From: an uncultured Geobacter sp.
Lineage (GTDB): Bacteria > Desulfobacterota > Desulfuromonadia > Geobacterales > Pseudopelobacteraceae
Length of the DNA: 64,000 bases
NCBI GenBank assembly: GCA_964622705.1
Contig: CAZUSH010000005.1
Span: forward strand, 11,389 to 75,388
Direction of reading: 5' to 3'
The first letter of the stretch is position 1; each line of letters begins with the position of its first letter. Positions 29,700 to 48,423 of this stretch are shown here, piece after piece. The notes under the pieces are model-generated. The model was given only the letters and a program-made list of their open reading frames with translations. It was not told where the DNA came from and did no database searches. The position numbers were made by a program, and so were the translations under genes.

Positions 29700-30611
29700 A
29701 TGGCCCACAGCATGGTGGTGATAGCGGTACTGTTCCTGCTGGGTCTACTGTCCGGCTGTACCAGAGAGCCGGATATTCAAGGACCCCGGGTTGGAACAAA
29801 GCTCCCCGGCGCCGGGAAGCCGGTTTTCAGTTTCGCGGTCCATCCTCTGCATAATCCCGCCAAATTGATTGCGGCGTACCAGCCTCTGATTGACTACCTG
29901 AACAGCAACATGCAGGGCGCACACCTGAGCCTGGAGGCGTCACGGGATTACGCCAGCTTTGAACAGAAATACCTGGCCCGGAAACCCGCCTTCATCCTCC
30001 CCAACCCCTGGCAGACGCTGCAGGCTGAAAAGGCCGGGTACCACGTCATTGCCATGGCGGGGGAACCAGGCGATTTTACGGGCATCTTTATCGTGCGCCG
30101 TGATAGCGGCATCAAGACCCCGGCCGACCTGAAAGGGAAGGCGGTCAGTTATCCCTCCCCCTCGGCCCTGGCGGCCTGCATCATGCCGCAGTATTTTCTG
30201 CATACCCACGGTATCGACGTCACGAAAGCGATTGAAAACCGCTACGTAGGCTCCCAGGAATCCTCCATCATGAATGTCTATCTGGGCAAGACCGCTGCCG
30301 GCGCCACCTGGCCGGTGCCGTGGCGCGCCTTTCAGCGGGAGCATCCCGCAGAGGCCGCACAGCTGAAGATGCTTTGGGAAACGGAGCCGCTGATCAATAA
30401 CTCGGTCATGGCGCGCAATGACATGCCGCCTCAGCTGGTCGCACAGGTGCAACAGTTGCTGCTTAATCTGGAACAGGCGCCCGGCGGCAAGGCGATTCTG
30501 CTTGGGATGGAAACCGCGCGGTTTCTGCCCGCCGATAATGCGCGTTATGAGCTGGTACGCGCCTATGTTGCCCGTTTTGAACGGAACGTGCGACCGGTGG
30601 AGGCGCCTTGA
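29700..30611 (+). CDS. PhnD-like periplasmic substrate-binding lipoprotein (orphan)
   Basis: Lipobox LLSGC; FAVHP, DLKGKAVSYPSPSALAA, YVGSQESS. Confidence 0.88.
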   Translation: MAHSMVVIAVLFLLGLLSGCTREPDIQGPRVGTKLPGAGKPVFSFAVHPLHNPAKLIAAYQPLIDYLNSNMQGAHLSLEASRDYASFEQKYLARKPAFILPNPWQTLQAEKAGYHVIAMAGEPGDFTGIFIVRRDSGIKTPADLKGKAVSYPSPSALAACIMPQYFLHTHGIDVTKAIENRYVGSQESSIMNVYLGKTAAGATWPVPWRAFQREHPAEAAQLKMLWETEPLINNSVMARNDMPPQLVAQVQQLLLNLEQAPGGKAILLGMETARFLPADNARYELVRAYVARFERNVRPVEAP

Positions 30612-33448
30612 TGCTCACTACCCTGTATCGATTGCTGACCAAGACCCTGCGGGGTCGGCTGATCATTGGTGTTGCGCTGGTGCATGCGTTCATGATGGCG
30701 CTGTTCGTCGCCGACCTGACCAAACGTCAGCGTGCCATGCTGCTGGAGCACCAGGCCGATCATGCGATATCCCTGTCGCAGACCCTGGCCACTTCCGCGG
30801 CTGGCTGGATCGCTGCCGACGATATTGCCGGGTTGCAAGAACTGGTAGAGGTGCAACGGCGCTATCCTGATCTTGTTTTTGCCCTGCTGACCGACCGGCA
30901 AGGGCTGGTGCTGGCGGATACGGACAGCGCCAGGCGGGGACTCTACCTGCAGGATCTTTCCGGAGAGGTCCGCCAGCAGGTCTTCTCCCGCAGCGGGGCA
31001 CTGGTGGACGTGGCGACTCCGGCGTTCATCGGAGGACGGCACGTCGGCTGGGCGCGGGTCGGTATCGGCCAGAAAAAGGTTGGGCAGGAACTGGCTGCCA
31101 TCACCAGGAACGGTATAGGCTATGCCGTAGCGGCCATCCTGCTTGGCTCCGTCATCGCCTGGTTCATGGGGACACGGATCAGCAGGCGGCTCTATGCCGT
31201 GCAAAAGACCATTGACCGCATCGGATCAGGCGAGCGGACGGCCCGTACGCTGCTGGACGGAGTGGATGAAGCCGCTGTCATGGCGCGGGAGTTCAACGCC
31301 ATGCTGGACCAGCTGGACGAACGCGATGCCGAACTGCGGAGCAGTGAAGAACGCTACCGCTCGCTGATCCGAAAGGTACCGGCGGCAATCGTCCTGCATG
31401 ACGGGCAGGGCAGGATTCTGGACAGCAATCCGTTGGCCGGGGAGCTGCTGGGACTTTCCGCCGACCAACTCGTCGGCAGAGAACTGATCGATCCCCAGTG
31501 GCACTTTCTCCGTGAGGACGGTTCACTCCTGCCGGTGGATCAGCTGCCGGCAGCACAGGTTATCGCAACGCGGCAGGCGATCAGCAATCTGATCGCCGGT
31601 ATCCGGCGCCCTGACCGGGACCAGCTTGCCTGGGTGCTGATCAGTGCTGAACCTGAATTTGATGCGTCCGGTGACGTTCGGCGCGTCATCGTTTCGTTCA
31701 TCGACATCTCCGAGCGTAAACGGACGGAGCAGCAGCGGCTGGGCAACCTGCCCTTTTTTGAGAGCATGGATCGGATCAACCGTGTGCTGCAAGGAACCGC
31801 CGACCTTGAAGAGATGCTGGATGCCGTGCTTGATGCCGTACTTTCGGCCTTCGGCTGCGACCGGGCCTTCCTGCAGCACCCGTGCGACCCTGCTGCGCCG
31901 TCTTGGCTCGTAGCGGCGGAACGTTGCCGCCCCGGTTATCCGGGGATGTCGGAACCGGGGCAGGAAATGCCGATAACTCCGGAGGTAGCCGAAACAGTTC
32001 AAATCATGCTGGATGCCGACGGACCGGTCTGTTTCGGTCCGGGCAGCTCCTATCCGCTTCCTGCTGACACGGCTAAACGTCTCGGCTTCAAGAGCTTCAT
32101 GGCCATAGCCATCCGCCCCAGAAGCGGCGCAGTCTGGCTGTTCGGCATCCACCAGTGCTCCTACGCCCGCACCTGGACCGAAGGGGAACAACGGCTTTTT
32201 CAGGAAATCGGCAGACGACTGGCCGACAGCATGAGCACGCTGCTGATCTGCCGGACCCTGCAAGAGAGCCAGGAACGCTATCGCCTGGTGTTTGAAAACT
32301 CGCCGGTCTCAATCTGGGAAGAGGACTTTTCCGAGGTGCGGGTCTTCTTCGACATGCTTCGAGCCGGGGGCATTGAAGATATTGCGGCCTACTTCGATCA
32401 GCACCCCGAGGAGGTGGCACACTGTGCCGAAAAGGCGCGTATTGTCGACCTCAACCGCAGTACTGTGCTGTTACATGGCGCCGACAGCAAGGAGACGTTG
32501 CTTGCCGGATTGGTCCAGACCTTTACCCCGGACTCCTTTGACGCCTTCCGGCAGGAACTGATCTGTCTCTGGAACGGCGATACCCGGATGGTACGGGATG
32601 CCGAGGTCAAGACCCTTGCAGGGGAGCCGCGGCAGGTAACCGTGCACTTCTCAGTCTGCCCGGGCTATGAGCAGAGCCTTGCCAAGGTGCTGGTATCGTT
32701 GGTGGATGTTACTGAGCGCAAACGGGCTGAGGAGGAGGTTCGCCTGAATCTGGCGCAACAGATGGCGCTACTGGATGTCTATCAAAAGATGCCTACAGCG
32801 CAAGTGCCTGAAATAATATCGTTTGTCGTGGATAAGTGTGTCAGCCTGACCGAAAGCATGATCGGTTTTGTCGGGATTATCAGTGACGACGACAGCTTCA
32901 TGGAGGCCCATTTGTGGTCTGCCCGGGTCATGGAGAGCTGCCCCATCGATAAACCGCTCCGCTTCCCGCTCAGCGATGCCGGACTCTGGGCCGGACCGGT
33001 CAGACAACGCCGTGTCGTCACCGTCAACGACTATGCGGCAGACAATCCGCTGAAAAAGGGCTATCCGGCGGGGCACCTCTCGCTGACCCGTTTCATGGGG
33101 GTGCCGCTGATCGACAATGGCCGGGTTGCGGCGGTTGCCGCTGTAGCGAACAAGCACGAGCCCTACGACGATGCTGACCACTACAAGATCTCGTTGATGC
33201 TGAAGGGGATGTGGGACATCATGAAGCGGAAGATGGCCGAAGAAGCGCTGCACACGCTCAACGAAGAGCTTGAGCAGCGGGTTCGGTTACGCACCGCCGA
33301 GCTGGCCGAAAAACATGATGAGCTGCAGCGGATGAACAAGATGTTTGTCGGTCGGGAGCTGCGGATGGTGGAGCTGAAGGAACGGGTCAGGGAGCTGGAG
33401 GCAGGCGCAGGCATGCCTCCAGCCGCCGTTGCAGGAGGTTCCAAATGA
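30611..33448 (+). CDS. Sensor-only protein 1: TM-periplasmic-TM-HAMP-PAS-GAF-PAS-GAF + 'VGREL' cap; no kinase domain
   Basis: HAMP (DEAAVMAREFNAM), PAS/PAC (SFIDISERK, VDVTERK), two GAFs; ends MNKMFVGRELRMVELKERVRELE; no H/N/G boxes. Confidence 0.88.
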   Translation: MLTTLYRLLTKTLRGRLIIGVALVHAFMMALFVADLTKRQRAMLLEHQADHAISLSQTLATSAAGWIAADDIAGLQELVEVQRRYPDLVFALLTDRQGLVLADTDSARRGLYLQDLSGEVRQQVFSRSGALVDVATPAFIGGRHVGWARVGIGQKKVGQELAAITRNGIGYAVAAILLGSVIAWFMGTRISRRLYAVQKTIDRIGSGERTARTLLDGVDEAAVMAREFNAMLDQLDERDAELRSSEERYRSLIRKVPAAIVLHDGQGRILDSNPLAGELLGLSADQLVGRELIDPQWHFLREDGSLLPVDQLPAAQVIATRQAISNLIAGIRRPDRDQLAWVLISAEPEFDASGDVRRVIVSFIDISERKRTEQQRLGNLPFFESMDRINRVLQGTADLEEMLDAVLDAVLSAFGCDRAFLQHPCDPAAPSWLVAAERCRPGYPGMSEPGQEMPITPEVAETVQIMLDADGPVCFGPGSSYPLPADTAKRLGFKSFMAIAIRPRSGAVWLFGIHQCSYARTWTEGEQRLFQEIGRRLADSMSTLLICRTLQESQERYRLVFENSPVSIWEEDFSEVRVFFDMLRAGGIEDIAAYFDQHPEEVAHCAEKARIVDLNRSTVLLHGADSKETLLAGLVQTFTPDSFDAFRQELICLWNGDTRMVRDAEVKTLAGEPRQVTVHFSVCPGYEQSLAKVLVSLVDVTERKRAEEEVRLNLAQQMALLDVYQKMPTAQVPEIISFVVDKCVSLTESMIGFVGIISDDDSFMEAHLWSARVMESCPIDKPLRFPLSDAGLWAGPVRQRRVVTVNDYAADNPLKKGYPAGHLSLTRFMGVPLIDNGRVAAVAAVANKHEPYDDADHYKISLMLKGMWDIMKRKMAEEALHTLNEELEQRVRLRTAELAEKHDELQRMNKMFVGRELRMVELKERVRELEAGAGMPPAAVAGGSK
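33260..33401 (+). repeat. VGREL cap copy 1 (142 bp)
   Basis: Near-identical to 37597-37738; colinear with the other four copies. Confidence 0.9.
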
Positions 33449-35781
33449 GCGTTGACAGACTCATTTTCAGGCACCACACAATGGGTATGCTCGGGCTGTT
33501 GTTCATGCTTACGCCGGCACCCGGCCAGGCAGCCGAGTTGGCCGACATGGATATTGCCGAACTGGTGAACGTGCGGGTGACTCCCTTTGACGTTTCGGCC
33601 CATCTGGACTGCGGCTACCGTGCTTCCAACTCCGTATCGGGGTCTCGATTTGACACCCCGATACGGGATCTGCCTTTTGCCATCCAGGCCTTTACCGAAG
33701 AGTTCATCAAGGACCAGAAGCCGGTGAACATCTTTGATGTGGCACGGTATTCACCGGGTGTTACCTACCGCAGCAATGACTTTAACGAAGGCAATGCCAA
33801 CGTGGCCATTCGCGGCTTTGCGGTCAGTTCCACTCCCGGTAACGTCCAGATCCTGCGCGACGGCTTCCATGGCCCCTCGATCTTCGATTTCACCAACATC
33901 TCCCGGGTGGAGGTGGTCAAGGGACCTGCCTCGTTCCTCTACGGCCAAGTTGCTCCCGGTGGTGTTGTCAATGTGATTACCAAGAATCCGCAACCGGTTT
34001 TTGCCGCAACCGCCGAGTCCCGCTACGGTTCTTACGGCCAGTATCGTTTTGAAGGGGACGTGACCGGTCCGGCAACCAAAACTCTCTTCTACCGGCTCGC
34101 GAGCTCCTATGACCAGGATAGTCATTACTGGAACCCCTACGATGCACATTCCTGGGACGTTGCGCCCTCGCTGCTCTGGCAACCCAATGACCGCCTGAGC
34201 GTATCGCTCAAATATGAGACCTTTCAGAAGCTGGAAACACCGCAGTTGATGCAGAAGCCGGGTTACAACACCCAGGCCGGTGTTGTGCCGACAGCAAGCG
34301 ATCCCAATCTGTCCGGGGTTGATGTGCCGGGATTGCCGGATACCTGGAACAGCATGTCCTATGCCGATTTTCGAAGAAGCGAGACCCATGCCTTCAGCAG
34401 TTGGATTGACTTCAAGGCCGGCTCGCACTGGAACCTGCGGGCCGGTTATTCGCACCTGGAGTACGAGATCGACGCGCTCTTCTCCGGCAACCTTGGTATG
34501 GCCAACAACAGCACATTTCTGCAGGGACGCCGCTTCAGGCGTCAGACATACAACAATCAGGACGATACGGTTCAGTTGGATGGCGTTGGAGCCTACAACC
34601 TTACCTGGAGCAATTTACGCCTGCTCTTTGGTGGACAGTATGTCGATAGACGTTTTGACAGTCGTGCCGGCCAGGCTCCCAACGACCCGGCTCTTGGCAG
34701 CAATCCCACGGCCTCGCCGCTGCCGCTCTGGGATTTGCGAGATCCTTCTACCTGGAACCGAGTGGTAACCATCCCGCTTTCTGCGCTGACAGAGAACAGG
34801 TCTGACAACTCACTCGCGGCGACGGACATGTCGGTTTACGGCGGGATAAACTGGAGTTTCCTGAATGACCGCTTGCTGGTGCTTGCCGGTCTGCGCCTGA
34901 CGGCAACGGAAAGCCGCCTTACGAATCAGCTGACCGGCCAATCCCAACCCAGGATCACTGCAAACGCGCTTACTCCGCAATACGGCTTGCTCTACAAGGT
35001 TACACCGGGGCTCTCACTGTTTGCCTCCTATGCCGAATCGTTCGTACCCGGCACACAATTGCTCAATACGATTGACGGGAACACCAGGGCCGCCGAACCG
35101 ACCAGGGGATGGGGCTACGACGCCGGTCTCAAGGCGGATCTGTTCGACGGCCGTGTCTCCGGCACGCTCACCTGGTTCGATATTCGCAACCAGAACATTG
35201 TCAACGACCTTGCCGTGACAAACTCGTCCGGCTCCGTGGTTATCTACAACGTACAAAGTGGCGAACAGCGCTCCAGCGGCGTTGAGCTTGACGTCACGAT
35301 CACGGCAACGGACAACTGGCAGCTCTATCTTTCCTACAGTTACATGGATGCAAAAATAACGGAATTCAGCGGAAACGACGCTGCTATCCTTGCCCAGAAT
35401 CCTGCCACCCTGGATGCCGCAGGATTGGCCAACTACAAAAACGTGAAACGGTTCCATAACGCCCCATTACAGATGAGCGCTCCCCATCTGGTCAACTTCT
35501 GGACCCGCTACAACTTTAGTGAGAGTACCCTCACAGGGGCCTACGTGGGTGGCGGCATCAACTTTGTCTGCGATCAGACCCTGCTGCCCGATACCCCGGA
35601 GTCGGCACACCAAACCTATGTCCTGGTCAATGCGCTGGCCGGTTACGCATGGAAGTGGGGAGGCCACAGACTTAATCTGGAATTGACGGGAAAAAACCTA
35701 GCCGACGAGCAGTACCGGCCATCGCAAAGTTCACGCAGCCGTCCCCGTGAATTCCTGCTGACACTTACCGCCAGGTTCTGA
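33445..35781 (+). CDS. TonB-dependent outer-membrane receptor
   Basis: Plug (IRGF, VEVVKGPASFLYG), barrel ending LTARF; N-terminal DMDIAELVNV motif. Confidence 0.92.
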   Translation: MSVDRLIFRHHTMGMLGLLFMLTPAPGQAAELADMDIAELVNVRVTPFDVSAHLDCGYRASNSVSGSRFDTPIRDLPFAIQAFTEEFIKDQKPVNIFDVARYSPGVTYRSNDFNEGNANVAIRGFAVSSTPGNVQILRDGFHGPSIFDFTNISRVEVVKGPASFLYGQVAPGGVVNVITKNPQPVFAATAESRYGSYGQYRFEGDVTGPATKTLFYRLASSYDQDSHYWNPYDAHSWDVAPSLLWQPNDRLSVSLKYETFQKLETPQLMQKPGYNTQAGVVPTASDPNLSGVDVPGLPDTWNSMSYADFRRSETHAFSSWIDFKAGSHWNLRAGYSHLEYEIDALFSGNLGMANNSTFLQGRRFRRQTYNNQDDTVQLDGVGAYNLTWSNLRLLFGGQYVDRRFDSRAGQAPNDPALGSNPTASPLPLWDLRDPSTWNRVVTIPLSALTENRSDNSLAATDMSVYGGINWSFLNDRLLVLAGLRLTATESRLTNQLTGQSQPRITANALTPQYGLLYKVTPGLSLFASYAESFVPGTQLLNTIDGNTRAAEPTRGWGYDAGLKADLFDGRVSGTLTWFDIRNQNIVNDLAVTNSSGSVVIYNVQSGEQRSSGVELDVTITATDNWQLYLSYSYMDAKITEFSGNDAAILAQNPATLDAAGLANYKNVKRFHNAPLQMSAPHLVNFWTRYNFSESTLTGAYVGGGINFVCDQTLLPDTPESAHQTYVLVNALAGYAWKWGGHRLNLELTGKNLADEQYRPSQSSRSRPREFLLTLTARF

Positions 35782-35848
35782 GATGCTGTTAAGAGCTACC
35801 GTACATAGGCCAGTGAAGCCGGGCTGCTGCGCAGCAGAAGACGGCGAC

Positions 35849-36469
35849 ATGCGGCATGCTTCCGCGCCGCTGAGTATCCGGCAGCAGATTGGCCCGCTGC
35901 TGCGGCGCTACGCTCCAGCCATGTTGTTAGTCCTGTTTTACCTGTATTGCCTTGCAAGTCCGGCAATCGGTCAAGAGTTTGCCAAAGCTGACCCGATCAG
36001 GATTGAAGCGGCGATTTTACGCAATTTTGCCCGCTACGTCACCTGGCCGCACCATGCCTTCAAAGATACTCATCTGGCTTGGCGTATCTGCATCCTCGGG
36101 GATGATCCATTTGGCCAGGTACTGGAAAAGACCTTTGAAGGACGTACGGAACAGGGACGTTCGTTTCAGGTATTCCGGGCAGAGACGCTGGAAGAACTAC
36201 CGCCGTGCCAGATCGTCTTTATCGCCTATCAAGACGCTGCAAAACGCCGTGCGGTCCTGGAACTGCTTAAGAAGCAACCGGTCCTGACCGTGAGTGCTGC
36301 CCCTGACTTTTTGCAAGAAGGGGGGATCATCCGCTTCAAGGTCACAGATCGGGTGGAGATGAGCGTCAACCTTGATCAGGCCCGCTCCTCCTCGCTGAAG
36401 ATTCAAACCAAGATGCTTGAGGTTTCCCGTGAAGTGCTGGAGAACGGAATCGTACGGAGGTTGAGATGA
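35849..36469 (+). CDS. YfiR/DUF4154-family periplasmic protein
   Basis: IEAAILRNFARYVTWP, ICILGDDPFG, CQIVFI, PVLTVS, GGIIRF, VNL; start uncertain (35783 possible). Confidence 0.9.
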   Translation: MRHASAPLSIRQQIGPLLRRYAPAMLLVLFYLYCLASPAIGQEFAKADPIRIEAAILRNFARYVTWPHHAFKDTHLAWRICILGDDPFGQVLEKTFEGRTEQGRSFQVFRAETLEELPPCQIVFIAYQDAAKRRAVLELLKKQPVLTVSAAPDFLQEGGIIRFKVTDRVEMSVNLDQARSSSLKIQTKMLEVSREVLENGIVRRLR

Positions 36470-37770
36470 TCCGGCTTCACGGCATGAGCATACACAACAG
36501 GCTGACATTTGCACTCTGGTGCGCTGCGCTCTTTGCCTTTGCCGCAGCAGGCGTGGCGTTGGCGCTGTTTGAGAACCTCACGCAGGAGGGACGTGCACGC
36601 CAGATCATGGAACCGTACGCGCAGCTCGTTTCCGCCGGGGCTGAAACGGCAATAGCCTTTCAGGACTCCGTGCGGGCTGAAGAGATTCTCACGCCACTGC
36701 GGGCCAATGCGCAGATTTTGACAGCAGAAATCGTTTTGCGGGATGGACGGATGTTAGCCCGCTACAGCAGTGCCGGTACCCCTTTGCAAGCCCAGCCGCT
36801 TAAACCGGACGGGATCCACCTGAGTCATGACACGGCGGAGCTGATACAGAGGTTGCATGACGATGCCCATCTGCGCCTTGTCATGAGCCTGGGTGAGCTT
36901 AACCGGCAGATGAGAAACATGCTGCTGCTCTTTGCCGCAGGGATGCTTGTCTTGCTGGTGGTCGTTACGTTGGGGTTGCGTGCGGCCCTGCAACGCGTCA
37001 TTGTCCAGCCCATCTCCGCCCTGGCCGAGACGGTTGAACAGGTTCGTATCAGGGCTGATTATCATCAACGTGTCCCGGTCTTCGGCAACGATGAGGTGGC
37101 ACGGCTCGGCCGGAGCTTCAACGCCATGATGGAGGCTGTTCAGGTGCGGGAAGATAATTTGCGTCAACTTGCGATCTTTCAGAGCACTATTCTGGACAAT
37201 GCGGCCTACGGCATCATTGCCACCACTACCGAAGGGGTTGTCAGCAGCTTTAACCGGGCAGCTGAACAGTTACTCGGCTACCGGGCCGATGAACTGGTCG
37301 GCAGACAGACGCCGATCTGCTGGCATGAAGCAGGGGAGCTGGCGCAGTACGCGCTTCATCTCTCCACAGAGCTGTCCGAAACGGTTCAGCCCGGATTTGA
37401 GGTGTTTACGACCCGTCCCCGGCGCAACCAGCCGGAAGAACATGAATGGACCTTTATCCGTAAGGACGGGACGCGTGTGCCGGTGTTGCTCTCTGTAACG
37501 GCATTGCGGGATGAAAACCGTCAGATCATTGGATTTGCCGGTCTGTGCTATGATCTCACGGAACGCAAACAGGCAGAGGAAGAACTCCGCCAACTGAACG
37601 AAGAGCTTGAGCAGCGGGTATGGTTACGTACCGCCGAACTGGCCGAAAAAAACGATGAGCTGCAGCGGATGAACAAGATGTTTGTCGGTCGGGAGCTGCG
37701 GATGGTGGAGCTGAAGGAACGGATCAGGGAACTGGAGGAACAGCTCCGGACAAACGGCAACGAAGCCTGA
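36466..37770 (+). CDS. Sensor-only protein 2: CHASE8-like-HAMP-PAS + VGREL cap
   Basis: AIAFQDSVRAEEILTPLRANAQI...DGRMLARY, HAMP (DEVARLGRSFNAM), PAS; ends FVGRELRMVELKERIRELE. Confidence 0.88.
   Translation: MIRLHGMSIHNRLTFALWCAALFAFAAAGVALALFENLTQEGRARQIMEPYAQLVSAGAETAIAFQDSVRAEEILTPLRANAQILTAEIVLRDGRMLARYSSAGTPLQAQPLKPDGIHLSHDTAELIQRLHDDAHLRLVMSLGELNRQMRNMLLLFAAGMLVLLVVVTLGLRAALQRVIVQPISALAETVEQVRIRADYHQRVPVFGNDEVARLGRSFNAMMEAVQVREDNLRQLAIFQSTILDNAAYGIIATTTEGVVSSFNRAAEQLLGYRADELVGRQTPICWHEAGELAQYALHLSTELSETVQPGFEVFTTRPRRNQPEEHEWTFIRKDGTRVPVLLSVTALRDENRQIIGFAGLCYDLTERKQAEEELRQLNEELEQRVWLRTAELAEKNDELQRMNKMFVGRELRMVELKERIRELEEQLRTNGNEA
37597..37738 (+). repeat. VGREL cap copy 2
   Basis: Only about ten mismatches to copy 1 by manual comparison. 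Confidence 0.9.
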
Positions 37771-37785
37771 AAGGAGATACCTCGG

Positions 37786-38838: not shown

Positions 38839-38873
38839 TGATCCGTCTTTTAGGACGAGTGGAGAGGTAGGTC

Positions 38874-40448: not shown

Positions 40449-40463
40449 AAGGGGATAACCACC

Positions 40464-43229
40464 ATGCCGTCTTGCAGACATATTTTCTGTCGGACACTGC
40501 TGTTCCTGCTGCTTGCCGCCGCCTTCCCGGTGCATTTTCCAACGCCGGCGCTTGCCCATGCCCAGGTTCAAAAGCGGGAGAACATCCTCGTCCTTCATTC
40601 CTACAGTCAGGATTTCATCTGGACCCGTTCGCAACAGGAGGGGATCGACGCCGTCTTCGGGTCGCTTGCCGCCGCATACGACGTGCAGATCGAGTACCTG
40701 GATGCGGTGCACTACCCGGAATTGCTGCAAGACCCCCGCCTGCTCGACATCCTGCGGGCCAAGTACCCGAACCGGCATTTCAAGGTAGTGCTGACCTCGG
40801 ACAACGCCGCGTTCAATTTTGCCCGCGCCCATCGCGCCGAACTCTTCCCCGGCGTACCGATCGTCTTCATGGGGGTAAACGGCTATACGGACAGACTGCT
40901 GCAAGGGGAGAAGGGGATTACCGGCGTGGCCGAGGACACCGACCTCGCCGGGACGCTCAAGGTGCTGCAACAACTGCTGCCCCGGACCAAACGGATTGTC
41001 TTCCCCGGCATGACGGACGACATTACCTATCACGCCATCCGCGCCACGATCACCAAGGAACTCACGGTGCTCCCGCCGGAGATCAGGACCGAATTCCCGG
41101 AGTATCCTGATGTGGATGCAGCCCTTGATGCCTTGCGGAAACTCCCGCCGGATGCGGCAATCGTCATCATGACCAACATGCGCACCCGCAACGGCCAGGG
41201 GATCAGCAGCCAGCGTGTCGTGGAGCTGGTCTCGGCGGCTGCGCCGGTCCCGGTCTTCACGAACTGGGACTTCACGGTCGGCCACGGGGCAACGGGTGGG
41301 AGCGTCATCAGCGGCGTCGAGCAGGGACGCCAGGCAGCGGAGATCGCGTTGCGGGTACTGCGGGGTGAACGTCCCGAGTCGATTCCGGTACGTCGCGGGG
41401 CCGGTAAGGCGTTGCTGTTTGACTACCGGCAACTGGTCCGGTTTGACATCCCGTCGTCACGTCTGCCGCCGGGGAGTGTCGTGCTGTTTGCGCCGGAGCG
41501 TATCCTGCGGATCTCACGCGAAACGGCCTGGGCGGTCGGTATCTCGTTTGTGTTACTGCTCGGCGTCACCGTTTCGCTGGTGCTCTCGGTACGGCGCCGC
41601 CGACGCGCCGAAGAACAGGTCCGCGTGATCAACCGGGAGCTGGAGTCGACAAACAGCGCGCTTGGTATCGAGATTGAAGGACACCGGCAGGCCGAGAGAA
41701 AACTCTCCCGCCTGAACCGGGAGCTCAGGGCCATCAGCAACTGCAACCAAGTGCTTATCAAGGCCGAGGATGAACAGACCCTTCTGAACGAGGTCTGCCG
41801 CATTGTCTGCGACGAGGCCGGCTACCGTATGGCATGGGCCGGCTATCCGGTGCATGATGAGGCGAAGACCTTGCAACCGGCTGCTTGGGCCGGAGCCGAG
41901 GACGGCTATCTTGTAAACGCCCAACTCACCTGGGCCGATACGGAACGGGGACAAGGTCCCGGTGGAACGTCGATTCGTACCGGAAAGAGCTGCTGTATCC
42001 AGGATTTTGCCACCGATCCCCATGCCGTCCCTTGGCGGGAGAGCGCCTTGCAGCGCGGCTACCGCTCGTGCATAGCGCTTCCGTTGAAAAGCGTTGAAAA
42101 CAGCGTCTTCGGCGTGCTGGTCATCTATTCCACGGAACCCGATGCCTTTACCTCTGACGAAATCCGGCTCATGGAAGAGCTGGCGGGGGATCTCGCCTTC
42201 GGCATCAGGAGCCTGCGCACCCGCAATGCCCGCAAGGAGGCGGAAGATGCACTGCATATCCAGACCGTTGAACTTGAGCAGGAGATGGCGCAGCGGCAGC
42301 GCGCCCAGGAAGAATTGCAGCAATTGAATAACGAGCTTGAGCTGCGTGTCAGGCAGCGGACCAGTGAGCTCTCCGATAAAAACAACGAACTGCAAAAGGC
42401 CTACGATGAGTTGAAAATCACCCAGACACGGCTGCTGCAGCAGGACAAGATGGCCTCCATCGGCCAATTGGCCGCCGGAGTAGCCCATGAGATAAATAAT
42501 CCGATGGGATTCATCAGCAGCAATCTTTCCAGTCTTGGCCGCTATACGGAGAAGCTTGCCGCCTATCTGGAGGACGGCGAACAGGCGATTGCCGCTGCTG
42601 CGCCGGAACTGGGCGAGACGCTGGCCCAGCAGCGTAAGGCGTTGAAGATCGACCGGATCCTCCAGGATCTGCCGGAGCTGATCAACGAATCCCGTGACGG
42701 CGCCGAGCGGGTGCGGCGGATCGTACAGGATTTGAAGAATTTTTCCAGGGTTGATGCCAAGCAGGTACATGCCGACCTGAACGAAGGGCTGGAGAGCACC
42801 CTGGCCATCGTCTGGAACGAACTGAAGTACAAGGCGACGGTAACCAAGGACTATGGCACCTTGCCGCCCGTCTGTTGCAATCCGGGACAGATCAACCAGG
42901 TATTCATGAACCTGCTGATAAACGCGGCCCAGGCGATCGAAAGCCTGGGCGAGATACGCATACGCACCTGGAGCGAAGACAACAGCGTCCATGTTTCCAT
43001 CAGTGACACCGGCTGCGGCATTCCTGAAGAGGTGCGCAGACATATCTTTGATCCCTTCTTTACCACCAAGGAAGTGGGCAAGGGAACCGGCCTTGGGCTG
43101 GCCATTGCCTATGACATTGTCGTCAACAAACATGGCGGCAAGATTGATCTGCAGAGCGAAGCCGGGAAGGGGACAACCTTTACCATCACCTTGCCGATCA
43201 CACCCCGGGAACAGGAGATGCCGACTTGA
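40464..43229 (+). CDS. Histidine kinase: periplasmic ABC_sub_bind-like domain-TM-GAF-HisKA-HATPase (NtrB class)
   Basis: [41 protein letters not shown]. Confidence 0.92.
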
Positions 43230-43879
43230 GTGCGCACGACAAACCATCCGAAACGATTTTCTCGATGCTCACCATCACGGCCCTGGTGCTCGGTATCTAC
43301 ATCAGCGGCCAGTATAGCTTTCTTTTGTTCCACGGACTCGTCGAGCTCGTCAGCATGTATGACGTTGCCAACAAGCTCGGCCACATCGCCAAGCTGGTGG
43401 CGTTCTATCTGATGTACCGGGCGATACTCGTCACCGGTCTCAAGGAACCTTTTGAAGTTGTCTTCAGAACGTAAAAGCCAACGGAACAGGAACTGCGCGA
43501 GTACCAGGAAACCCTGGAAGAACGGATCAGGGAACGGACCGTGCAACTGGAACTTGAAATCACCGGACACAAACAGACCGAGGAAGCGCTTCAGCTTCAA
43601 ACCGCCGGACTTGGACAGGAGATGGCCAAGCGGCAGAGGGCGCAAGAGGCGCTGCAGCAAAAGGCGATCCTGTTGAAAAAAGAGAGCGAAAAACGGCAAC
43701 AGGCTCAGGAAGAACTGGAAAAATTGAACGAGCAACTGGAGCAGCGGGTACAGCAGCGTACTGCCGAACTGGAGGCAAAAAACGTCGAACTATCCCGCAT
43801 GAACAAGATCTTCGTCGGTCGAGAGCTGAAGATGATCGAGCTGAAAGAGCGGATCAGAGAGCTGGAAAACGAGAGGTAA
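43226..43879 (+). pseudogene. Sensor-only protein 4 (pseudogene): internally deleted MASE3 + in-frame TAA + VGREL cap
   Basis: 43226-43474 and 43541-43879 are in the same frame, separated by TAA at 43472; MASE3 N- and C-ends joined directly. Confidence 0.8.
43727..43868 (+). repeat. VGREL cap copy 4
   Basis: MNKIFVGRELKMIELKERIRELE; colinear. Confidence 0.85.
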
Positions 43880-43885
43880 TATTTG

Positions 43886-45901
43886 ATGATCACGGATCAT
43901 GCCCCTACGGCGGCAACCGGATTTACCCCGAGCGACGGACATCTCAACCGCGCCTTGTACGCTGCAACGACAGTCGGTATCCTGTTCGGAATCTACGCGA
44001 GCAGCCTGTATAACTATCTTTTGTTTCACAGCCTGGTCGAAGTTGCGACGGTTGCCGTCGCCTTTGCCCTGTTTGCCTTCACCTGGAGCGCCCGCCGTTT
44101 TCTGAGCACCGGTTGCCTCAAGGTAATCGGCATCGGCTACGGCCTGATAGCCCTGATTGACCTTTTGCATACCCTGGCCTATAAGGGTATGGGCGTTTTC
44201 CCGGGCTATGATGCCAACCTGCCCACCCAGCTCTGGATCGCCGCTCGTACCCTGCAGGCGATCCTGCTCTGCATCGCACCGCTCTATGCCCGGCGCAATC
44301 TTGATGAACGGCATTTCTTCATGCTTGCCCTTGTTGCAACGGCAACCGCTACGGCACTGGTCTTTGCCGGGGTGTTTCCCGACTGCTTCATCGAGGGCAA
44401 GGGACTCACTCCCTTCAAGATTGCAGCAGAATACGTCATCAGCGCCGTCCTTGTCGCTGCGCTCGCACTTTTCGTTAGTGTGCGGACGTCGTTCAACAGC
44501 AGGGTGTTCGTGCTCCTGGTTGCCGGGATCCTCTGTACCATCGGTTCCGAATTGGCCTTTACCTCCTACATCAGTGTCTATGGTCCCGCCAACATGGCGG
44601 GGCACCTTCTGAAGCTGGCCGCCTTTGCCCTGGCCTACCTGGCTCTGATCGATACCGGCTTCAAGGAGCCGTTTGAACTTGTTTTCCGGGACCTGCAACA
44701 GGCCGGACAGCGGTTGCGCGAGCATCAGGAAACCCTGGAAGACCGGATCAGAGAACGGACCGCTGCGCTTGAAAGCATGAATGAGACCCTTGCAGAGGAG
44801 GTGCGGGAGCGTATCCGGGCCGAGGATGCCCTGCAGCGCCTGAACCGCGAGTTGCGTGCCGTCAGCACCTGCAATCAGGTGTTGATGAAGGCGGTGGACG
44901 AGGCCGGCCTGCTGGCTGAGATCTGCCGGATTGTCTGCGACGAGGCCGGCTACCCCATGGCCTGGGTGGGCTATCCCGAAAACGATGCGAACCGGACCGT
45001 ACGGCCGATTGCCTGGGCCGGTGTGGAGGGGGACGCGCTTGCAACGGCACATGTCAGTTGGGCCGACACCGAACGGGGATATGGCCCTGCCGGCGTGGCG
45101 GTCAGAACGGGCAGGGTGGATTGCTCGCAGGACTTCAGTGCCGACCCGCGTATGCTCCCCTGGCGGGAAAAAGTCCTGCAGCGGGGATATCACTCCTGCA
45201 TTGCCTTGCCGCTCAAGGATGATCGGGCGGCGGTCTTTGGCGTGCTGTGCATCTATTCGACGGAAGTAAATGCCTTCACGCCGGATGAAACCCGGCTTCT
45301 GGAGGAACTGGCGAACGACCTGGCATTTGGCATGTGCATGCTGCGAAGTCGCAAGGCTCGTAAAGAGGCTGAACAGCGAAGTGTTCTCCTTAGTTTTGCT
45401 CTCGATAACGTACGCGAGGCGACCTTTCTGATCGACGAACAGGCGTACTTTCACTACGTCAACGAAGAGGCGTGCCGTCTGCTCGGCTACAGTCGCGACG
45501 AATTGCTCGGTCTTGGTGTGGCCGATGTGGACCCTGATTTTCCACGGGAACTCTGGCCGGCGCATTGGGCGGAACTGAGGCAACACCGCTCCCTCACCTT
45601 TGAGGGGCGGCACAGAACCAAGGAGGGTACGCTCATTCCGGTTGAGATCAACGCCAACTACCTGGAGTACGACGGCCGGGGGTTCAATCTGGCCTTGGTG
45701 CGCAATATCACCGAACGCAAGCGTTCGGAAGAGGAAATCCGAAAACTTAATCAGGACCTGGAACAACGCGTAACAGAACGTACCGCCGCGCTTGAGGCGA
45801 AAAACCTGGAACAGGAAAAGATGCTCAGGGCGTTTGTCGGCAGAGAGCTGAAGATGGTCGAACTGAAAAAGAAGATTGAACAGCTTGAGAAATCATCCTG
45901 A
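43886..45901 (+). CDS. Sensor-only protein 5: MASE3-GAF-PAS + VGREL cap
   Basis: NYLLFHSLVE...LHTLAYKGMG...TQLWIAAR MASE3 signature, GAF, PAS; ends FVGRELKMVELKKKIEQLE. Confidence 0.88.
   Translation: MITDHAPTAATGFTPSDGHLNRALYAATTVGILFGIYASSLYNYLLFHSLVEVATVAVAFALFAFTWSARRFLSTGCLKVIGIGYGLIALIDLLHTLAYKGMGVFPGYDANLPTQLWIAARTLQAILLCIAPLYARRNLDERHFFMLALVATATATALVFAGVFPDCFIEGKGLTPFKIAAEYVISAVLVAALALFVSVRTSFNSRVFVLLVAGILCTIGSELAFTSYISVYGPANMAGHLLKLAAFALAYLALIDTGFKEPFELVFRDLQQAGQRLREHQETLEDRIRERTAALESMNETLAEEVRERIRAEDALQRLNRELRAVSTCNQVLMKAVDEAGLLAEICRIVCDEAGYPMAWVGYPENDANRTVRPIAWAGVEGDALATAHVSWADTERGYGPAGVAVRTGRVDCSQDFSADPRMLPWREKVLQRGYHSCIALPLKDDRAAVFGVLCIYSTEVNAFTPDETRLLEELANDLAFGMCMLRSRKARKEAEQRSVLLSFALDNVREATFLIDEQAYFHYVNEEACRLLGYSRDELLGLGVADVDPDFPRELWPAHWAELRQHRSLTFEGRHRTKEGTLIPVEINANYLEYDGRGFNLALVRNITERKRSEEEIRKLNQDLEQRVTERTAALEAKNLEQEKMLRAFVGRELKMVELKKKIEQLEKSS
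45749..45890 (+). repeat. VGREL cap copy 5
   Basis: Colinear, most divergent copy. Confidence 0.8.
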
Positions 45902-45943
45902 TTGCGCCGGATTATACAGCCGGCAGGCACAAGGAGAGGAACC

Positions 45944-46813
45944 GTGCGATCCATATTGCATAAAATCATTTTCGTCTGCCTGCTGCTGTGTTCTTTGTCG
46001 CTATCCCGTATGCTCTGTGCAACCGCCCTGGCTGTTGAAGAACCTGCCCCGGTCTACACCTTTGGGGTGGTGCCCCAGTTTGAACAGCGCAAACTCTACG
46101 CCATCTGGCAACCGATCATTGCCGAACTGACCAGACGTACCGGCTTCAAATTTAAGCTGGTTACAACGTTGAGCATTGAAAGCTTTGAAAAGGAGTTTAT
46201 GAGCGGTGGATTTGATTTTGTGTATATGAACCCCTACCATATTCTGAAGGCTCCCCGTTATCTACCGCTGGTTGCCGATACCGTGCCGTTGCGCGGCATT
46301 CTCGTGGTCCGCCGGGATTCACCGCTACGGAGCCTCAAGGAGCTGGAGGGAAAGGAGGTCGCCTTTCCCTCGCCCAACGCCCTGGGCGCCTCTTTGCTGA
46401 TGCGGGCGGACCTCGCACGGGTGCAGCGGATCAAGGTGAAGCCGCTGTATGTCAAGACGCATAGTTCGGTCTACCTGCATGTTGTGCAAGGGCTGACGGC
46501 AGCCGGTGGCGGGGTTGAAAAGAGTCTGAGCGAACAGGCGCCGGCCATCCGCAATGCCCTGCGGGTCATCTATACGACACGGGAGATGACGCCGCATCCC
46601 GTCGCGGCCAATCGGCGCATCCGGCCAGCTGACCGGGAGAAACTGCGGCAGGCCCTGCTGGCGATGGACGCGACCCCGGAAGGAAGGGCGCTGTTGGCGA
46701 ATATCCCCACCAAAGGGCTCATGCCGGTTTCCCGGGCCGACTATGAGCGGATGCGCGCCTGGGGGCTGGATGCCTACTGGGTCGACCTGTGGAAATCAGG
46801 GGCGAACCGATGA
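45944..46813 (+). CDS. PhnD-like periplasmic substrate-binding protein (orphan)
   Basis: Signal peptide; FGVVPQ, YMNPY, ELEGKEVAFPSPNALGAS, THSSVY; GTG after GGAGAGG. Confidence 0.88.
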   Translation: MRSILHKIIFVCLLLCSLSLSRMLCATALAVEEPAPVYTFGVVPQFEQRKLYAIWQPIIAELTRRTGFKFKLVTTLSIESFEKEFMSGGFDFVYMNPYHILKAPRYLPLVADTVPLRGILVVRRDSPLRSLKELEGKEVAFPSPNALGASLLMRADLARVQRIKVKPLYVKTHSSVYLHVVQGLTAAGGGVEKSLSEQAPAIRNALRVIYTTREMTPHPVAANRRIRPADREKLRQALLAMDATPEGRALLANIPTKGLMPVSRADYERMRAWGLDAYWVDLWKSGANR

Positions 46814-48423
46814 ACCTGCGCGGTAAGATCTTTCTGCCATTGGCGCTGCTCAGCGCCCTACTCTTCCTGTTCCTGTACGGATACTGGTTTCCGAAGTCTC
46901 TGCACAACTTGGAACAAGAGGAATTGCATGCGACCGCGCAACATCTGAGCAGCGTTGCAGAAGGGCTGGTGCCGCTATTACTGGCGCATCAACTGGACAC
47001 GCTCTATGCAAACCTTGACTCCCTGCACAGCCAAAACAGGGATTGGGTCGCCATCCGCCTGGTCGATGCCGACGGCAGATTGCTCTATCCCCTGCAGGAA
47101 ACACCGCCTGTAGCCGATGACGACAACCTGCGCACGCTTGAACATCGCATACAGTTCCTCGGCAACGACTTGGGAAAACTCTCGCTGACCATCAACCTTT
47201 CTTCGGCCGTCACACCGATGCAGACGCGGTATCGGCAGCTCGTCACCGCTTTGCTGATGGTGCTCTGCGGGTATCTTCTCAGTATCGGCTATGTGGTGGA
47301 ACGCGTGGTGAGACGACCGGTCAACCGTCTTGCCTACGCGGCCGCGAAGATTGCACAGGGTGATTTCGAGCTGCCCCTGGTAAAGACCGGCAATGACGAA
47401 GTGGGAACACTGGTAGACAGTTTTGCCGCCATGCGGAATGCCATCCGGGACTATCAGGAGACCTTGCTGGTACGTAATCGTGCGATCGGCAGGCTGTCCC
47501 AGGCTGTGGAGCAGAGCCCGGTTTCCATTGTGATCACCGATCTCGAAGGACGGATCACCTTCGTTAACCCGGCGTTCAGCCGGATAACCGGTTATACCCC
47601 TGAAGAGGTGTTGGGGCGAAATCCCCGCATCCTCAAGTCGGGCATGACGAGCGCGGACGAATACGCGGCCTTGTGGCGAAGCATCAGCGCGGGCGGGACA
47701 TGGTCCGGCGAGTTCTGCAATAAACGGAAAAGCGGAGAATTGTACTGGGAGTCGGCCTCCATCGCACCCATTTTGGATGAAAACGGAACGATTACTGCCT
47801 ATCTGGCGCTAAAAGAGGATATCTCCGAACGGAAGCTGGCTGAAGATACCCTGCGTAAAACGGCAGCGCGTCTGAGCGAAGCCCAGCGTATTGCGCAGAT
47901 GGGAAACTGGGAGCTTGATCTCACCTGCTGGCGTTTCTCTTGGTCTGATGAGGTGTATCGCATCTGCGAGGTCGATCCGGCAGCGTTTGAGGCCTCCTAT
48001 GAGGCGTTTCTCCAGCTGGTCCATCCTGATGACCGCGAAACGGTCGATGCCGCCTACCACACTGCCGTCAGGACCCGGACCTTTTATTCGATCGATCATA
48101 GATTGCTCTTGGCCGGAGGTAAGGTAAAATATGTCCACGAACAAGGTGAGACATGCTACGAGCGTGAAACGCCGGTTCGTTTTGTGGGAACCGTACAGGA
48201 CATCACCGAGCAGAAGCTGGTGGAGGAACGACTGCGAACCCTCTCGGCCGAACTGGAACAACGGGTCAGCGAGCGGACTGCCGAACTGCAGGAGAAGTAT
48301 GCGGAGCTTGAACGCCTGAACAGGCTGTTCGTTGGAAGAGAGTTGCGGATGGTGGAGTTGAAAGAGCAGATTAAGGCGCTTGAGCAACGGGCAACGGGTG
48401 TCAACTACAGTAACGATGCATAA
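46810..48423 (+). CDS. Sensor-only protein 6: TM-periplasmic-TM-HAMP-PAS-PAS + VGREL cap
   Basis: HAMP (DEVGTLVDSF), PAS (AVEQSPVSIVITD...GRNPRILKSG), PAS_3; ends FVGRELRMVELKEQIKALE. Confidence 0.88.
   Translation: MNLRGKIFLPLALLSALLFLFLYGYWFPKSLHNLEQEELHATAQHLSSVAEGLVPLLLAHQLDTLYANLDSLHSQNRDWVAIRLVDADGRLLYPLQETPPVADDDNLRTLEHRIQFLGNDLGKLSLTINLSSAVTPMQTRYRQLVTALLMVLCGYLLSIGYVVERVVRRPVNRLAYAAAKIAQGDFELPLVKTGNDEVGTLVDSFAAMRNAIRDYQETLLVRNRAIGRLSQAVEQSPVSIVITDLEGRITFVNPAFSRITGYTPEEVLGRNPRILKSGMTSADEYAALWRSISAGGTWSGEFCNKRKSGELYWESASIAPILDENGTITAYLALKEDISERKLAEDTLRKTAARLSEAQRIAQMGNWELDLTCWRFSWSDEVYRICEVDPAAFEASYEAFLQLVHPDDRETVDAAYHTAVRTRTFYSIDHRLLLAGGKVKYVHEQGETCYERETPVRFVGTVQDITEQKLVEERLRTLSAELEQRVSERTAELQEKYAELERLNRLFVGRELRMVELKEQIKALEQRATGVNYSNDA
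48244..48385 (+). repeat. VGREL cap copy 6
   Basis: Colinear; Phe codon at offset +84. Confidence 0.85.

What the first reader, a model, noticed from the sequence alone, without database searches (positions are those of the whole stretch)
29700..48423. Each sensor is paired with its own orphan ligand-binding protein; no transporters present
Seen: PhnD-like lipoprotein (29700) overlaps sensor 1; RbsB-like SBP (37786) precedes sensor 3; a second PhnD-like SBP (45944) overlaps sensor 6; the kinase at 40464 has an SBP-like domain fused in. No ABC permease or ATPase occurs in the window. Established: SBPs serve as co-receptors for sensor kinases (LuxP/LuxQ, ChvE/VirA, TorT/TorS). Inference: repeated two-gene receptor cassettes (SBP + membrane transducer with cap), each adding a new ligand input.
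Basis: partly seen in the sequence, partly recalled or inferred. Interest (0 to 1): 0.62.

Follow-up and report, generated by a model that had tools for sequence, protein, structure and literature searches.

The report
Orphan binding proteins feeding output-less sensors
Three periplasmic ligand-binding proteins with no transporter each sit in front of their own membrane sensor, and comparison with many genomes shows each pair is an old, mobile receptor unit that here feeds a shared kinase through sensors that have no enzyme domain.

Summary
Two PhnD-like proteins (29700-30611, 45944-46813) and one RbsB-like protein (37786-38838) each lie directly upstream of a two-pass membrane sensor. The kinase at 40464 carries a fused PF04392 binding-protein domain. 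The whole 109-kb contig has no ABC ATPase, and the 98%-complete genome has no PhnE and no ribose-type permease.

"Each sensor" overstates it. Three of five intact capped sensors have such a partner. One has a YfiR-like protein plus a TonB-dependent receptor instead, and one (MASE3) has none.

The co-receptor reading is well supported by comparative data. Twelve of 12 distant homologues sampled (57-73% identical, several phyla) are followed at once by a sensor with the same periplasmic domain. That domain is 34-66% identical to the window's, while the cytoplasmic parts differ. None of the 12 sits beside an importer.

In two sister genomes the RbsB-like gene precedes a single protein that joins the window's sensor 3 to the kinase at 48454. 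The window therefore holds a split version of a classical binding-protein-dependent kinase.

Ligands are unknown and the canonical phosphonate-binding serines are replaced. No binding was tested. This is a new variant of a known kind, of moderate interest.

The parts
29700..30611 (+). SBP1: PhnD-like (PF12974) periplasmic lipoprotein, proposed co-receptor of S1
   Evidence: Pfam E 2.7e-52. It scores below the NCBIfam PhnD and TIGR01098 cut-offs. Its homologues are 67-74% identical in Betaproteobacteria, Chloroflexota and Desulfurivibrio. Three of 3 sampled homologues are followed by an sCache_3_2 kinase.
30611..33448 (+). S1: sCache_3_2-HAMP-PAS-GAF-GAF sensor ending in the coiled-coil cap, with no enzyme domain
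   Evidence: Pfam. The cap was found by regex. Residues 1-190 are 58-66% identical to the partner kinases of SBP1 homologues, whereas the cytoplasmic part gives only short local matches of 25-47%.
33445..35781 (+). TonB-dependent outer-membrane receptor, part of the S2 input module
   Evidence: Plug plus beta-barrel domains. ATGA overlap with S1.
35783..36469 (+). YfiR-like (DUF4154) periplasmic protein, the non-SBP partner of S2
   Evidence: PF13689 E 1.2e-40. NF053591 scores 118.9 bits, just under its cut-off of 125.
36466..37770 (+). S2: CHASE8-HAMP-PAS-cap sensor
37786..38838 (+). SBP_Rbs: RbsB-like (PF13407) periplasmic binding protein, proposed co-receptor of S3
   Evidence: Pfam E 1.4e-39. 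It scores 90 bits against the RbsB cut-off of 337. Its homologues are 66-90% identical across several phyla. All 9 same-genus orthologues and all 4 distant homologues sampled are followed by an S3-type sensor.
38874..40448 (+). S3: small Cache-like periplasmic domain, PAS-PAS, cap
   Evidence: Weak sCache_3_2 match and PAS domains. Residues 1-200 are 34-47% identical to the partner kinases of SBP_Rbs homologues. S3 is fused in register to the HK7 kinase core in G016 and G003.
40464..43229 (+). Histidine kinase with a fused periplasmic PF04392 (ABC_sub_bind) domain, then TM-GAF-HisKA-HATPase
   Evidence: A split version exists in G026 (ABC_sub_bind-GAF-cap followed by REC-HisKA-HATPase).
43226..43879 (+). 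Remnant of a MASE3 sensor. An in-frame stop precedes an open 134-aa frame (43475-43879) that still encodes a cap
43883..45901 (+). S5: MASE3-GAF-PAS-cap sensor, with no periplasmic partner
45944..46813 (+). SBP2: PhnD-like (PF12974) periplasmic binding protein, proposed co-receptor of S6
   Evidence: Pfam E 1.1e-51. The nearest solved structures are the signalling proteins ArrX and AioX. Its top 120 homologues are 56-81% identical, spanning several phyla. Five of 5 sampled are followed by an S6-type sensor kinase.
46810..48423 (+). S6: unannotated periplasmic domain, HAMP-PAS-PAS, cap
   Evidence: Residues 1-170 are 37-45% identical to the partner kinases of SBP2 homologues. The model has pLDDT 81.6, with a long helix plus a sheet. 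Its best fold matches are periplasmic PDC-type sensor domains, at weak E-values.
48454..50412 (+). HK7: PAS-PAS-HisKA-HATPase kinase with an ALMNIVDDL coiled coil, the likely common output of the capped sensors
   Evidence: The motif is unique in this genome and recurs in kinases next to capped genes in other phyla. Fusions with the S3 sensor exist.
50384..50785 (+). Single-domain response regulator
   Evidence: It is 40-89% identical to regulators downstream of capped arrays elsewhere.
50782..52101 (+). REC-HisKA-HATPase protein, the last gene of the array
   Evidence: It is conserved at the end of arrays in relatives.

Best explanation
SBP1, SBP_Rbs and SBP2 are dedicated periplasmic co-receptors, not transport components.

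Proposed mechanism:
1. Each protein is exported. SBP1 becomes a lipoprotein.
2. It binds a still unknown small ligand.
3. The loaded protein docks on the small Cache/PDC-like periplasmic domain of the sensor encoded next to it (S1, S3 or S6).
4. The signal crosses the membrane and passes through the HAMP, PAS and GAF modules to a C-terminal coiled-coil 'cap'. The cap takes the place of a kinase core.
5. The capped sensors act on the one kinase of the cluster that carries the matching coiled coil (HK7, 48454). HK7 phosphorylates the single-domain regulator and the REC-kinase downstream.

The array is therefore a set of plug-in receptor cassettes that converge on one phosphorelay.

Shown here: gene order, domain content, absence of matching importers, co-inheritance of each binding protein with its sensor domain, and sensor-kinase fusions in sister genomes.

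Inferred: physical docking, ligand dependence, and how the cap reaches HK7.
For: Tight coupling of each pair: 1-nt and 4-nt overlaps and a 35-nt spacer.

Conservation within the genus:
- SBP_Rbs is followed by an S3-type sensor in all 9 orthologous loci.
- The SBP2 orthologue in G004 is followed by an S6-type sensor.
- SBP1 is followed by an S1-type N-terminus in 11 of 17 loci, on partners of differing length.

Conservation across phyla: 12 of 12 homologues sampled are followed within 0-70 nt by a sensor, and none by a matching importer. The sensors' periplasmic domains are 37-45% (S6), 34-47% (S3) and 58-66% (S1) identical to the window's. The cytoplasmic parts differ.

No cognate transporter:
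- No ABC ATPase on the contig.
- The best PhnE score is 46 bits against a cut-off of 216.7.
- The only BPD_transp_2 permeases lie in two Liv-type loci that have their own Peripla_BP_6 proteins.

Fusions of the same domains to sensors:
- In this genome, PhnD-like domains are fused to a hybrid kinase and to a GGDEF-EAL protein.
- In sister genomes, NMT1 and PF04392 domains are fused to capped sensors.

Link to HK7: G016 and G003 encode SBP_Rbs followed by a single S3-HK7 protein. The two parts are joined at ...LEQRVQERTAEL|MERGRELQENQRALMNIVDDL.... The HK7-type motif occurs next to capped genes in Nitrospirota, Bacteroidota, Ignavibacteria and an ANME-2 archaeal MAG.

Precedent: AioX/AioS, LuxP/LuxQ and TorT/TorS (PMC8050422, PMC5908839). 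PhnD-like sensor domains occur in TtrS and in 838 kinases (PMC5408782).
Against: No binding, ligand or phosphotransfer was tested, and no complex could be modelled with these tools.

Adjacent sbp and kinase genes are not always functionally linked (PMC11113362, P. aeruginosa AgtS and AruS).

Orthologues of S1 in G020, G004, G021 and G026 lack an SBP1 gene directly upstream. Five SBP1 orthologues sit after the REC-kinase with no sensor seen downstream; one of these loci ends at the contig edge.

The genome is a 132-contig draft (98% complete), so a transporter could be missing.

The fold matches for the S6 periplasmic domain are weak (best E 6e-3).
Confidence: 0.72

Rival explanations
1. The binding proteins are ligand-independent periplasmic regulators of their sensors. 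They would act as inhibitors or scaffolds in the manner of YfiR on YfiN or CpxP on CpxA. The binding-protein fold would be kept but small-molecule sensing lost.
For: The canonical oxyanion-clamping Ser/Thr motif is replaced by SALAA in SBP1 and NALGA in SBP2 (alignments; the motif is family-wide). A YfiR-like partner serves S2 in the same array. The best fold matches of the S6 periplasmic domain include LapD-type and WalK-type domains, which bind proteins.
Against: The three families are very strongly conserved across phyla (57-74% identity), more so than their sensor partners. This fits a fixed small ligand. SBP_Rbs keeps five polar pocket residues of RbsB (the residue list is from memory). 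All characterised orphan binding proteins of these families bind ligands (PMC8050422).
Confidence: 0.13
2. The binding proteins deliver substrates to ABC transporters encoded elsewhere. They sit next to sensors only because the sensors regulate uptake, or by chance.
For: Many binding proteins have dual roles (PMC8050422). The assembly is a draft. Fifty ABC ATPase domains exist elsewhere in the genome.
Against: No PhnE-type permease is present. The only BPD_transp_2 permeases belong to two Liv-type loci with their own binding proteins, so no ribose-type (CUT2) permease was found. None of 12 distant homologues is next to a matching importer, and all 12 are next to a sensor. Both PhnD-like proteins score below the NCBIfam transporter-family cut-offs.
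Confidence: 0.07
3. The pairs are inherited together but do not interact. Binding protein and sensor would each sense separately and be kept together only by operon structure.
For: Such a case is documented in P. aeruginosa (PMC11113362).
Against: The binding protein travels with the periplasmic domain specifically, while the cytoplasmic modules are exchanged. Translational coupling is present. Equivalent domains are fused to sensors.
Confidence: 0.06

Closest known systems
AioX/AioS (and ArxX, ArrX) arsenic oxyanion sensing systems
   Same: A PF12974 (PhnD-fold) periplasmic protein with no transporter is encoded next to a membrane sensor with a small sCache-like periplasmic domain. By sequence, ArrX and AioX are the nearest solved structures to SBP2 (PMC5908839, PMC8050422).
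   Different: Similarity is distant (E 7e-12 to 1e-7). The two pocket serines of AioX/ArrX align with Ala and Gly in SBP2. No arsenic oxidoreductase or sigma-54 regulator genes are nearby. The partner sensors here have no kinase domain.
LuxP/LuxQ, TorT/TorS, ChvE/VirA and XylFII/LytS: kinases dependent on a Peripla_BP-type binding protein
   Same: An orphan RbsB-like binding protein is encoded directly upstream of a sensor with a PAS/Cache-like periplasmic domain. In G016 and G003 that sensor is a complete kinase.
   Different: In the window the sensor stops after the signalling helix with a cap, and the kinase is a separate protein. The NCBIfam scores for ChvE and TorT are far below their cut-offs. 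The ligand is unknown.
TtrS/ThsS and other kinases with a fused PhnD-like sensor domain
   Same: A PhnD-fold domain serves as the periplasmic input of a two-component sensor (PMC5408782). This genome has two such fusions. SBP1 weakly matches the TtrS N-terminal model.
   Different: In the window the PhnD-like module is a separate protein, and it pairs with a Cache-like receptor domain.
YfiR/YfiN (TpbB)
   Same: A periplasmic accessory protein controls a CHASE8-HAMP transducer. The S2 module in the same array is of this type.
   Different: YfiR is not a solute-binding protein. The output here is a cap, not GGDEF.
Signalling helix (S-helix) of Anantharaman, Balaji and Aravind 2006
   Same: The first half of the cap carries the LEQRVxERTAEL signature that normally links sensor and catalytic domains.
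   Different: Here the helix is followed by a conserved terminal segment (MNKLFVGRELRMxELK) and the protein then ends. No Pfam family covers it.

Membership tests
PhnD phosphonate ABC-transporter binding protein (TIGR03431) | Score above the curated equivalog cut-off | tested here: not met
   SBP1 scores 72 bits and SBP2 53.5 bits against a cut-off of 261.1. For TIGR01098 they score 99.1 and 59.7 against 112.05.
PhnD phosphonate ABC-transporter binding protein (TIGR03431) | Works with PhnC/PhnE encoded in the genome | tested here: not met
   The best PhnE hit scores 46 bits against a cut-off of 216.7, and it lies in a NitT/TauT-like locus on C66. No ABC ATPase lies on the contig.
PhnD phosphonate ABC-transporter binding protein (TIGR03431) | Ser/Thr-rich oxyanion-binding loop | tested here: not met
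   PtxB ASTSSH aligns with SBP1 PSALAA. ArrX MSFSGH aligns with SBP2 NALGAS. The replacement motif is conserved family-wide.
Pfam PF12974 Phosphonate-bd fold family | Full-length match above the gathering score | tested here: met
   178 and 176 bits against a cut-off of 27, covering profile positions 1-242.
AioX/ArrX signalling sub-family | Orphan PF12974 protein next to a sensor with a small Cache-like periplasmic domain | tested here: met
   The arrangement is conserved.
AioX/ArrX signalling sub-family | AioX pocket residues (Cys106, Ser161, Ser163) and linkage to arsenic redox genes | tested here: not met
   The serine positions are Ala and Gly in SBP2. No aio, arr or arx genes are in the window. 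The Cys position was not mapped.
RbsB ribose-binding protein (NF007936) | Score above the cut-off, and a CUT2 transporter partner | tested here: not met
   90 bits against 337. The only BPD_transp_2 permeases are in Liv-type loci with Peripla_BP_6 proteins.
RbsB ribose-binding protein (NF007936) | Ribose-contact residues | tested here: inconclusive
   Equivalents of D89, R141, N190, D215 and Q235 are kept. N64, R90 and F164 are changed in the alignment. F15 and F16 also appear changed, by a hand alignment of the N-terminus, which lies outside that local alignment. The list of contact residues is from memory.
Binding-protein-dependent sensor kinase (LuxPQ / TorTS type) | The receptor carries HisKA and HATPase domains | tested here: not met
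   S1, S3 and S6 have no catalytic domain. The feature is met by the S3-HK7 fusions in G016 and G003.
Binding-protein-dependent sensor kinase (LuxPQ / TorTS type) | Physical, ligand-modulated binding of the binding protein to the sensor domain | not testable with these tools
   No complex prediction or experiment is available here.
S-helix | Heptad coiled coil with an ERT signature after the last sensor domain | tested here: met
   R18 and T19 are invariant in the cap alignments. The helix follows PAS or GAF in all six copies.

The most novel reading that the evidence does not exclude
The locus is a modular many-to-one sensory hub of a kind not yet described. Binding-protein-dependent and other sensors have given up their own kinase core and end in a conserved 55-residue cap. 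Through the cap they pair, probably as a mixed coiled coil, with the equivalent helix of one hub kinase. New ligand inputs can then be added or removed as two-gene cassettes without touching the phosphorelay. Three very conserved and widespread binding-protein/sensor cassette families, now annotated as phosphonate or ribose transport proteins, would be receptors for unknown environmental signals.
Probability: 0.45. Interest if true: 0.8.

Novelty: new variant of a known kind. Interest (0 to 1): 0.55.

Why it matters
Thousands of proteins in public databases carry the names 'phosphonate' or 'ribose ABC transporter substrate-binding protein'. The top 120 homologues of each query are 56-90% identical. 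Every homologue sampled appears to be a receptor subunit of a two-component sensor, so the transport annotation is misleading.

The strong conservation points to a few widely sensed but unidentified ligands in anaerobic sediment and groundwater bacteria.

The window also shows, together with the fusions in sister genomes, how a classical binding-protein-dependent kinase can be split into an exchangeable input protein and a shared kinase. That gives a concrete system for studying signal integration in two-component pathways.

Tried and rejected
- **Pfam on the cap alone:** found nothing meaningful.
- **Promoter and terminator scans inside the array:** gave no more sites than shuffled sequence, and no intergenic terminators.
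- **A cognate transporter:** I looked for ABC ATPases, PhnE and BPD_transp_2, and checked the polytopic ORFs in the window. None fits.
- **The PhnD-like proteins as arsenic sensors of the AioX type:** rejected as a membership claim. The pocket serines are replaced and no arsenic genes are nearby.
- **SBP_Rbs as a ribose binder:** only half of the contact residues are kept.
- **Structure search for the S6 periplasmic domain:** gave only weak matches, all to periplasmic PDC-type domains. I use it as a fold hint only.
- **Literature search for the cap or for output-less sensors:** found nothing relevant.
- **A model of the binding-protein/sensor complex:** could not be run with these tools.
Full report
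**What is there**

The window is C5:11389-75388 of a 3.67-Mb draft genome that is 98% complete. From 29700 to 52101 all genes lie on the + strand. Junctions between genes are overlaps or spacers of 15-35 nt. No intergenic terminator-like site was found, and sites overall are no more frequent than in shuffled sequence.

Pfam gives this gene order:

| Coordinates | Gene | Domains |
|---|---|---|
| 29700 | SBP1 | PF12974 |
| 30611 | S1 | sCache_3_2-HAMP-PAS-GAF-GAF |
| 33445 | TonB-dependent receptor | Plug, beta-barrel |
| 35783 | YfiR-like protein | DUF4154 |
| 36466 | S2 | CHASE8-HAMP-PAS |
| 37786 | SBP_Rbs | PF13407 |
| 38874 | S3 | weak Cache, PAS-PAS |
| 40464 | kinase | PF04392 domain, TM, GAF, HisKA, HATPase |
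| 43226-43879 | broken MASE3 copy | cap still open |
| 43883 | S5 | MASE3-GAF-PAS |
| 45944 | SBP2 | PF12974 |
| 46810 | S6 | unannotated periplasmic domain, HAMP-PAS-PAS |
| 48454 | HK7 | PAS-PAS-HisKA-HATPase |
| 50384 | response regulator | single REC |
| 50782 | REC-kinase | REC-HisKA-HATPase |

S1, S2, S3, S5, S6 and the remnant have no catalytic domain. They end in the same coiled coil of about 55 residues, LNxELEQRVxERTAELxxKNxELERMNKLFVGRELRMxELKERIxELE. All six copies in the genome lie in this cluster.

**Check of the observation**

All five stated observations are correct (details in the observation field). The three binding proteins have signal peptides by inspection, and SBP1 has a lipobox.

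The title overstates the pairing. Three of five intact capped sensors have a stand-alone binding protein. S2 has a YfiR-like protein and a TonB-dependent receptor instead. S5 has none.

No ABC ATPase domain lies on the whole 109-kb contig, while 50 lie elsewhere in the genome.

**Is there a transporter elsewhere?**

- The best PhnE match in the genome scores 46 bits against a cut-off of 216.7. It belongs to a locus on C66 that has its own NMT1-like binding protein.
- BPD_transp_2 permeases occur only in two loci. Each has two permeases, two ATPases and its own Peripla_BP_6 protein, which is the Liv type and not the ribose type.
- SBP1 and SBP2 score below the NCBIfam cut-offs for PhnD and for the wider phosphate/phosphite/phosphonate family. 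SBP_Rbs scores far below the RbsB cut-off.
- The genome's two other strong PF12974 domains are fused to a PAS-kinase with a further C-terminal extension (C45) and to a GAF-GGDEF-EAL protein (C25).

**Conservation of the pairs**

Within the genus (27 genomes):
- SBP_Rbs orthologues (66-90% identity) are followed by an S3-type sensor in 9 of 9 loci.
- The SBP2 orthologue in G004 (72%) is followed by an S6-type N-terminus, in that case on a 918-aa capped protein.
- SBP1 orthologues (59-69%) are followed by an S1-type N-terminus in 11 of 17 loci. The partners range from 496 to 776 aa where complete.

Beyond the genus, each binding protein belongs to a large and strongly conserved family:
- SBP2: the top 120 homologues are 56-81% identical.
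- SBP_Rbs: 66-90%, including Desulfobulbaceae, Syntrophales and Wallbacteria.
- SBP1: 67-74%, including Sulfuritalea, Rhodoferax, Chloroflexota and Desulfurivibrio.

I read the gene context of 12 distant members. All 12 are followed within 0-70 nt, on the same strand, by a membrane sensor. None lies next to a matching importer.

Those sensors share the window's periplasmic domains: 37-45% identity for S6, 34-47% for S3 and 58-66% for S1. Their cytoplasmic parts are ordinary or hybrid histidine kinases, not capped proteins. So the conserved unit is the binding protein plus the periplasmic receptor domain, and the output is exchangeable.

The same cassettes stand in front of capped sensors in other capped arrays: L064, L065 and L069 (a Nitrospirota MAG), and G051, G043 and G059.

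**How the signal leaves the capped sensors**

The cap is always C-terminal. It occurs in Geobacteraceae and Pelobacter MAGs, Nitrospirota, Bacteroidota, Ignavibacteria, an ANME-2 archaeal MAG and others. A profile of the cap finds 2714 representative clusters at E <= 1e-10, with the cap at the C-terminus in nearly all of the top 150.

In most capped arrays whose downstream flank I could read, a kinase follows that carries the motif (A/S)L(M/L)N(I/L)V(E/D)D before its H-box, usually followed by a single REC and a REC-kinase. In this genome only HK7 has that motif together with an H-box.

The strongest evidence comes from G016 and G003. There the SBP_Rbs orthologue (88% and 83%) is followed by one protein of about 760 aa. 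Its first ~480 residues are the S3 sensor (83% and 72% identity). It continues in register, after ...LEQRVQERTAEL, with HK7's MERGRELQENQRALMNIVDDL...SHELRTPL kinase core.

The cap and the HK7 coiled coil are therefore alternative continuations of the same signalling helix. The window holds the split form of a classical binding-protein-dependent kinase.

G026 shows the same logic for the PF04392 module. It has ABC_sub_bind-GAF-cap followed by REC-HisKA-HATPase, whereas the window has them in one protein.

**Ligands**

The ligands are unknown.

The Ser/Thr loop that clamps the oxyanion in PtxB and ArrX is replaced by SALAA in SBP1 and NALGA in SBP2. The variants (S/A)(Y/F)PSP(T/N)A(L/I)(A/G)A are conserved across both families. 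Canonical phosphonate or arsenate binding is therefore unlikely.

SBP_Rbs keeps five polar residues of the RbsB pocket but loses its three stacking phenylalanines (plus a hand alignment of the N-terminus for F15/F16; the residue list is from memory). This suggests a polar ligand that is not ribose.

**Fold of the S6 receptor domain**

A model built from six sequences has pLDDT 81.6. It shows a long helix followed by a four-to-five-stranded sheet between the two membrane helices.

The best PDB matches are weak (E 6e-3 to 0.2), but they are all periplasmic PDC-type domains: LapD-like CdgS9, WalK and CitA.

**Caveats**

- Nothing was tested biochemically.
- Neighbouring sbp and kinase genes have been shown not to interact in P. 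aeruginosa (PMC11113362). Those genes sat beside transporter operons, unlike the genes here.
- S1 orthologues in G020, G004, G021 and G026 have no SBP1 gene directly upstream. In G004, G021 and G026 the SBP1 orthologue lies after the REC-kinase at the far end of the same cluster. Adjacency is therefore not obligatory for this pair.

**Verdict**

The principle is known from AioX/AioS, LuxP/LuxQ and TorT/TorS (PMC8050422, PMC5908839). What differs here is that the partners are output-less capped transducers feeding a separate kinase, and that the three cassette families are uncharacterised. I rate it a new variant of a known kind, with interest 0.55.

Noticed in passing
Loci L040-L044 and L048 (same-genus genomes G010, G018, G005, G015, G019, G006). 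Not in the window.: A PhnD-like binding-protein paralogue, encoded between a kinase and a REC-kinase, has one in-frame TGA in its pocket loop (VAFVGSRNV[TGA]SLVVRQ). Homologues in G014 and G020 have Cys at that position. An 8-bp hairpin with a GGUC-like apical loop starts 13 nt after the TGA in all six, and L042 shows a compensatory change in the stem. This looks like a selenocysteine-containing periplasmic co-receptor.
   Followed up: partly
L144:5587-7860 (G016) and L145:11603-13885 (G003): These proteins are natural fusions of the S3 sensor with the HK7 kinase core. The join is exactly at the ERTAEL signalling-helix motif, and the cap is absent.
   Followed up: yes
window 29700-33448, compared with L132-L134: SBP1 and the S1 periplasmic domain are closer to homologues in Betaproteobacteria, Chloroflexota and Desulfurivibrio (SBP1 68-70%, S1 domain 58-66%) than to many same-genus orthologues (SBP1 59-69%, with partner domains often 34-35%). 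This suggests horizontal movement of the cassette.
   Followed up: partly
L024:10037-12350 (G004) and L140:4736-7073 (G043): Three small non-sensor genes sit inside the capped-sensor arrays of relatives, between a capped sensor and a kinase. By eye one looks like a cobalamin-binding domain and one like a URO-D/MtaA-like methyltransferase. They are absent from the window and were not checked against Pfam.
   Followed up: no
window 43226-43879: This is a remnant of a MASE3 sensor. It has an in-frame stop, but an open 134-aa frame still encodes a perfect cap directly upstream of the intact MASE3 sensor S5.
   Followed up: partly
L023:12644-17424 (G004): Downstream of the relocated SBP1 orthologue lies a triad of TonB-dependent receptor, stand-alone PF04392 binding protein and hybrid kinase. 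It parallels the window's TonB receptor, YfiR-like protein and S2 module.
   Followed up: partly
window 33260-37738, all cap copies: The cap has no Pfam family, yet its profile finds 2714 representative clusters at E <= 1e-10 in 1.84 billion proteins. It is almost always at the C-terminus.
   Followed up: yes
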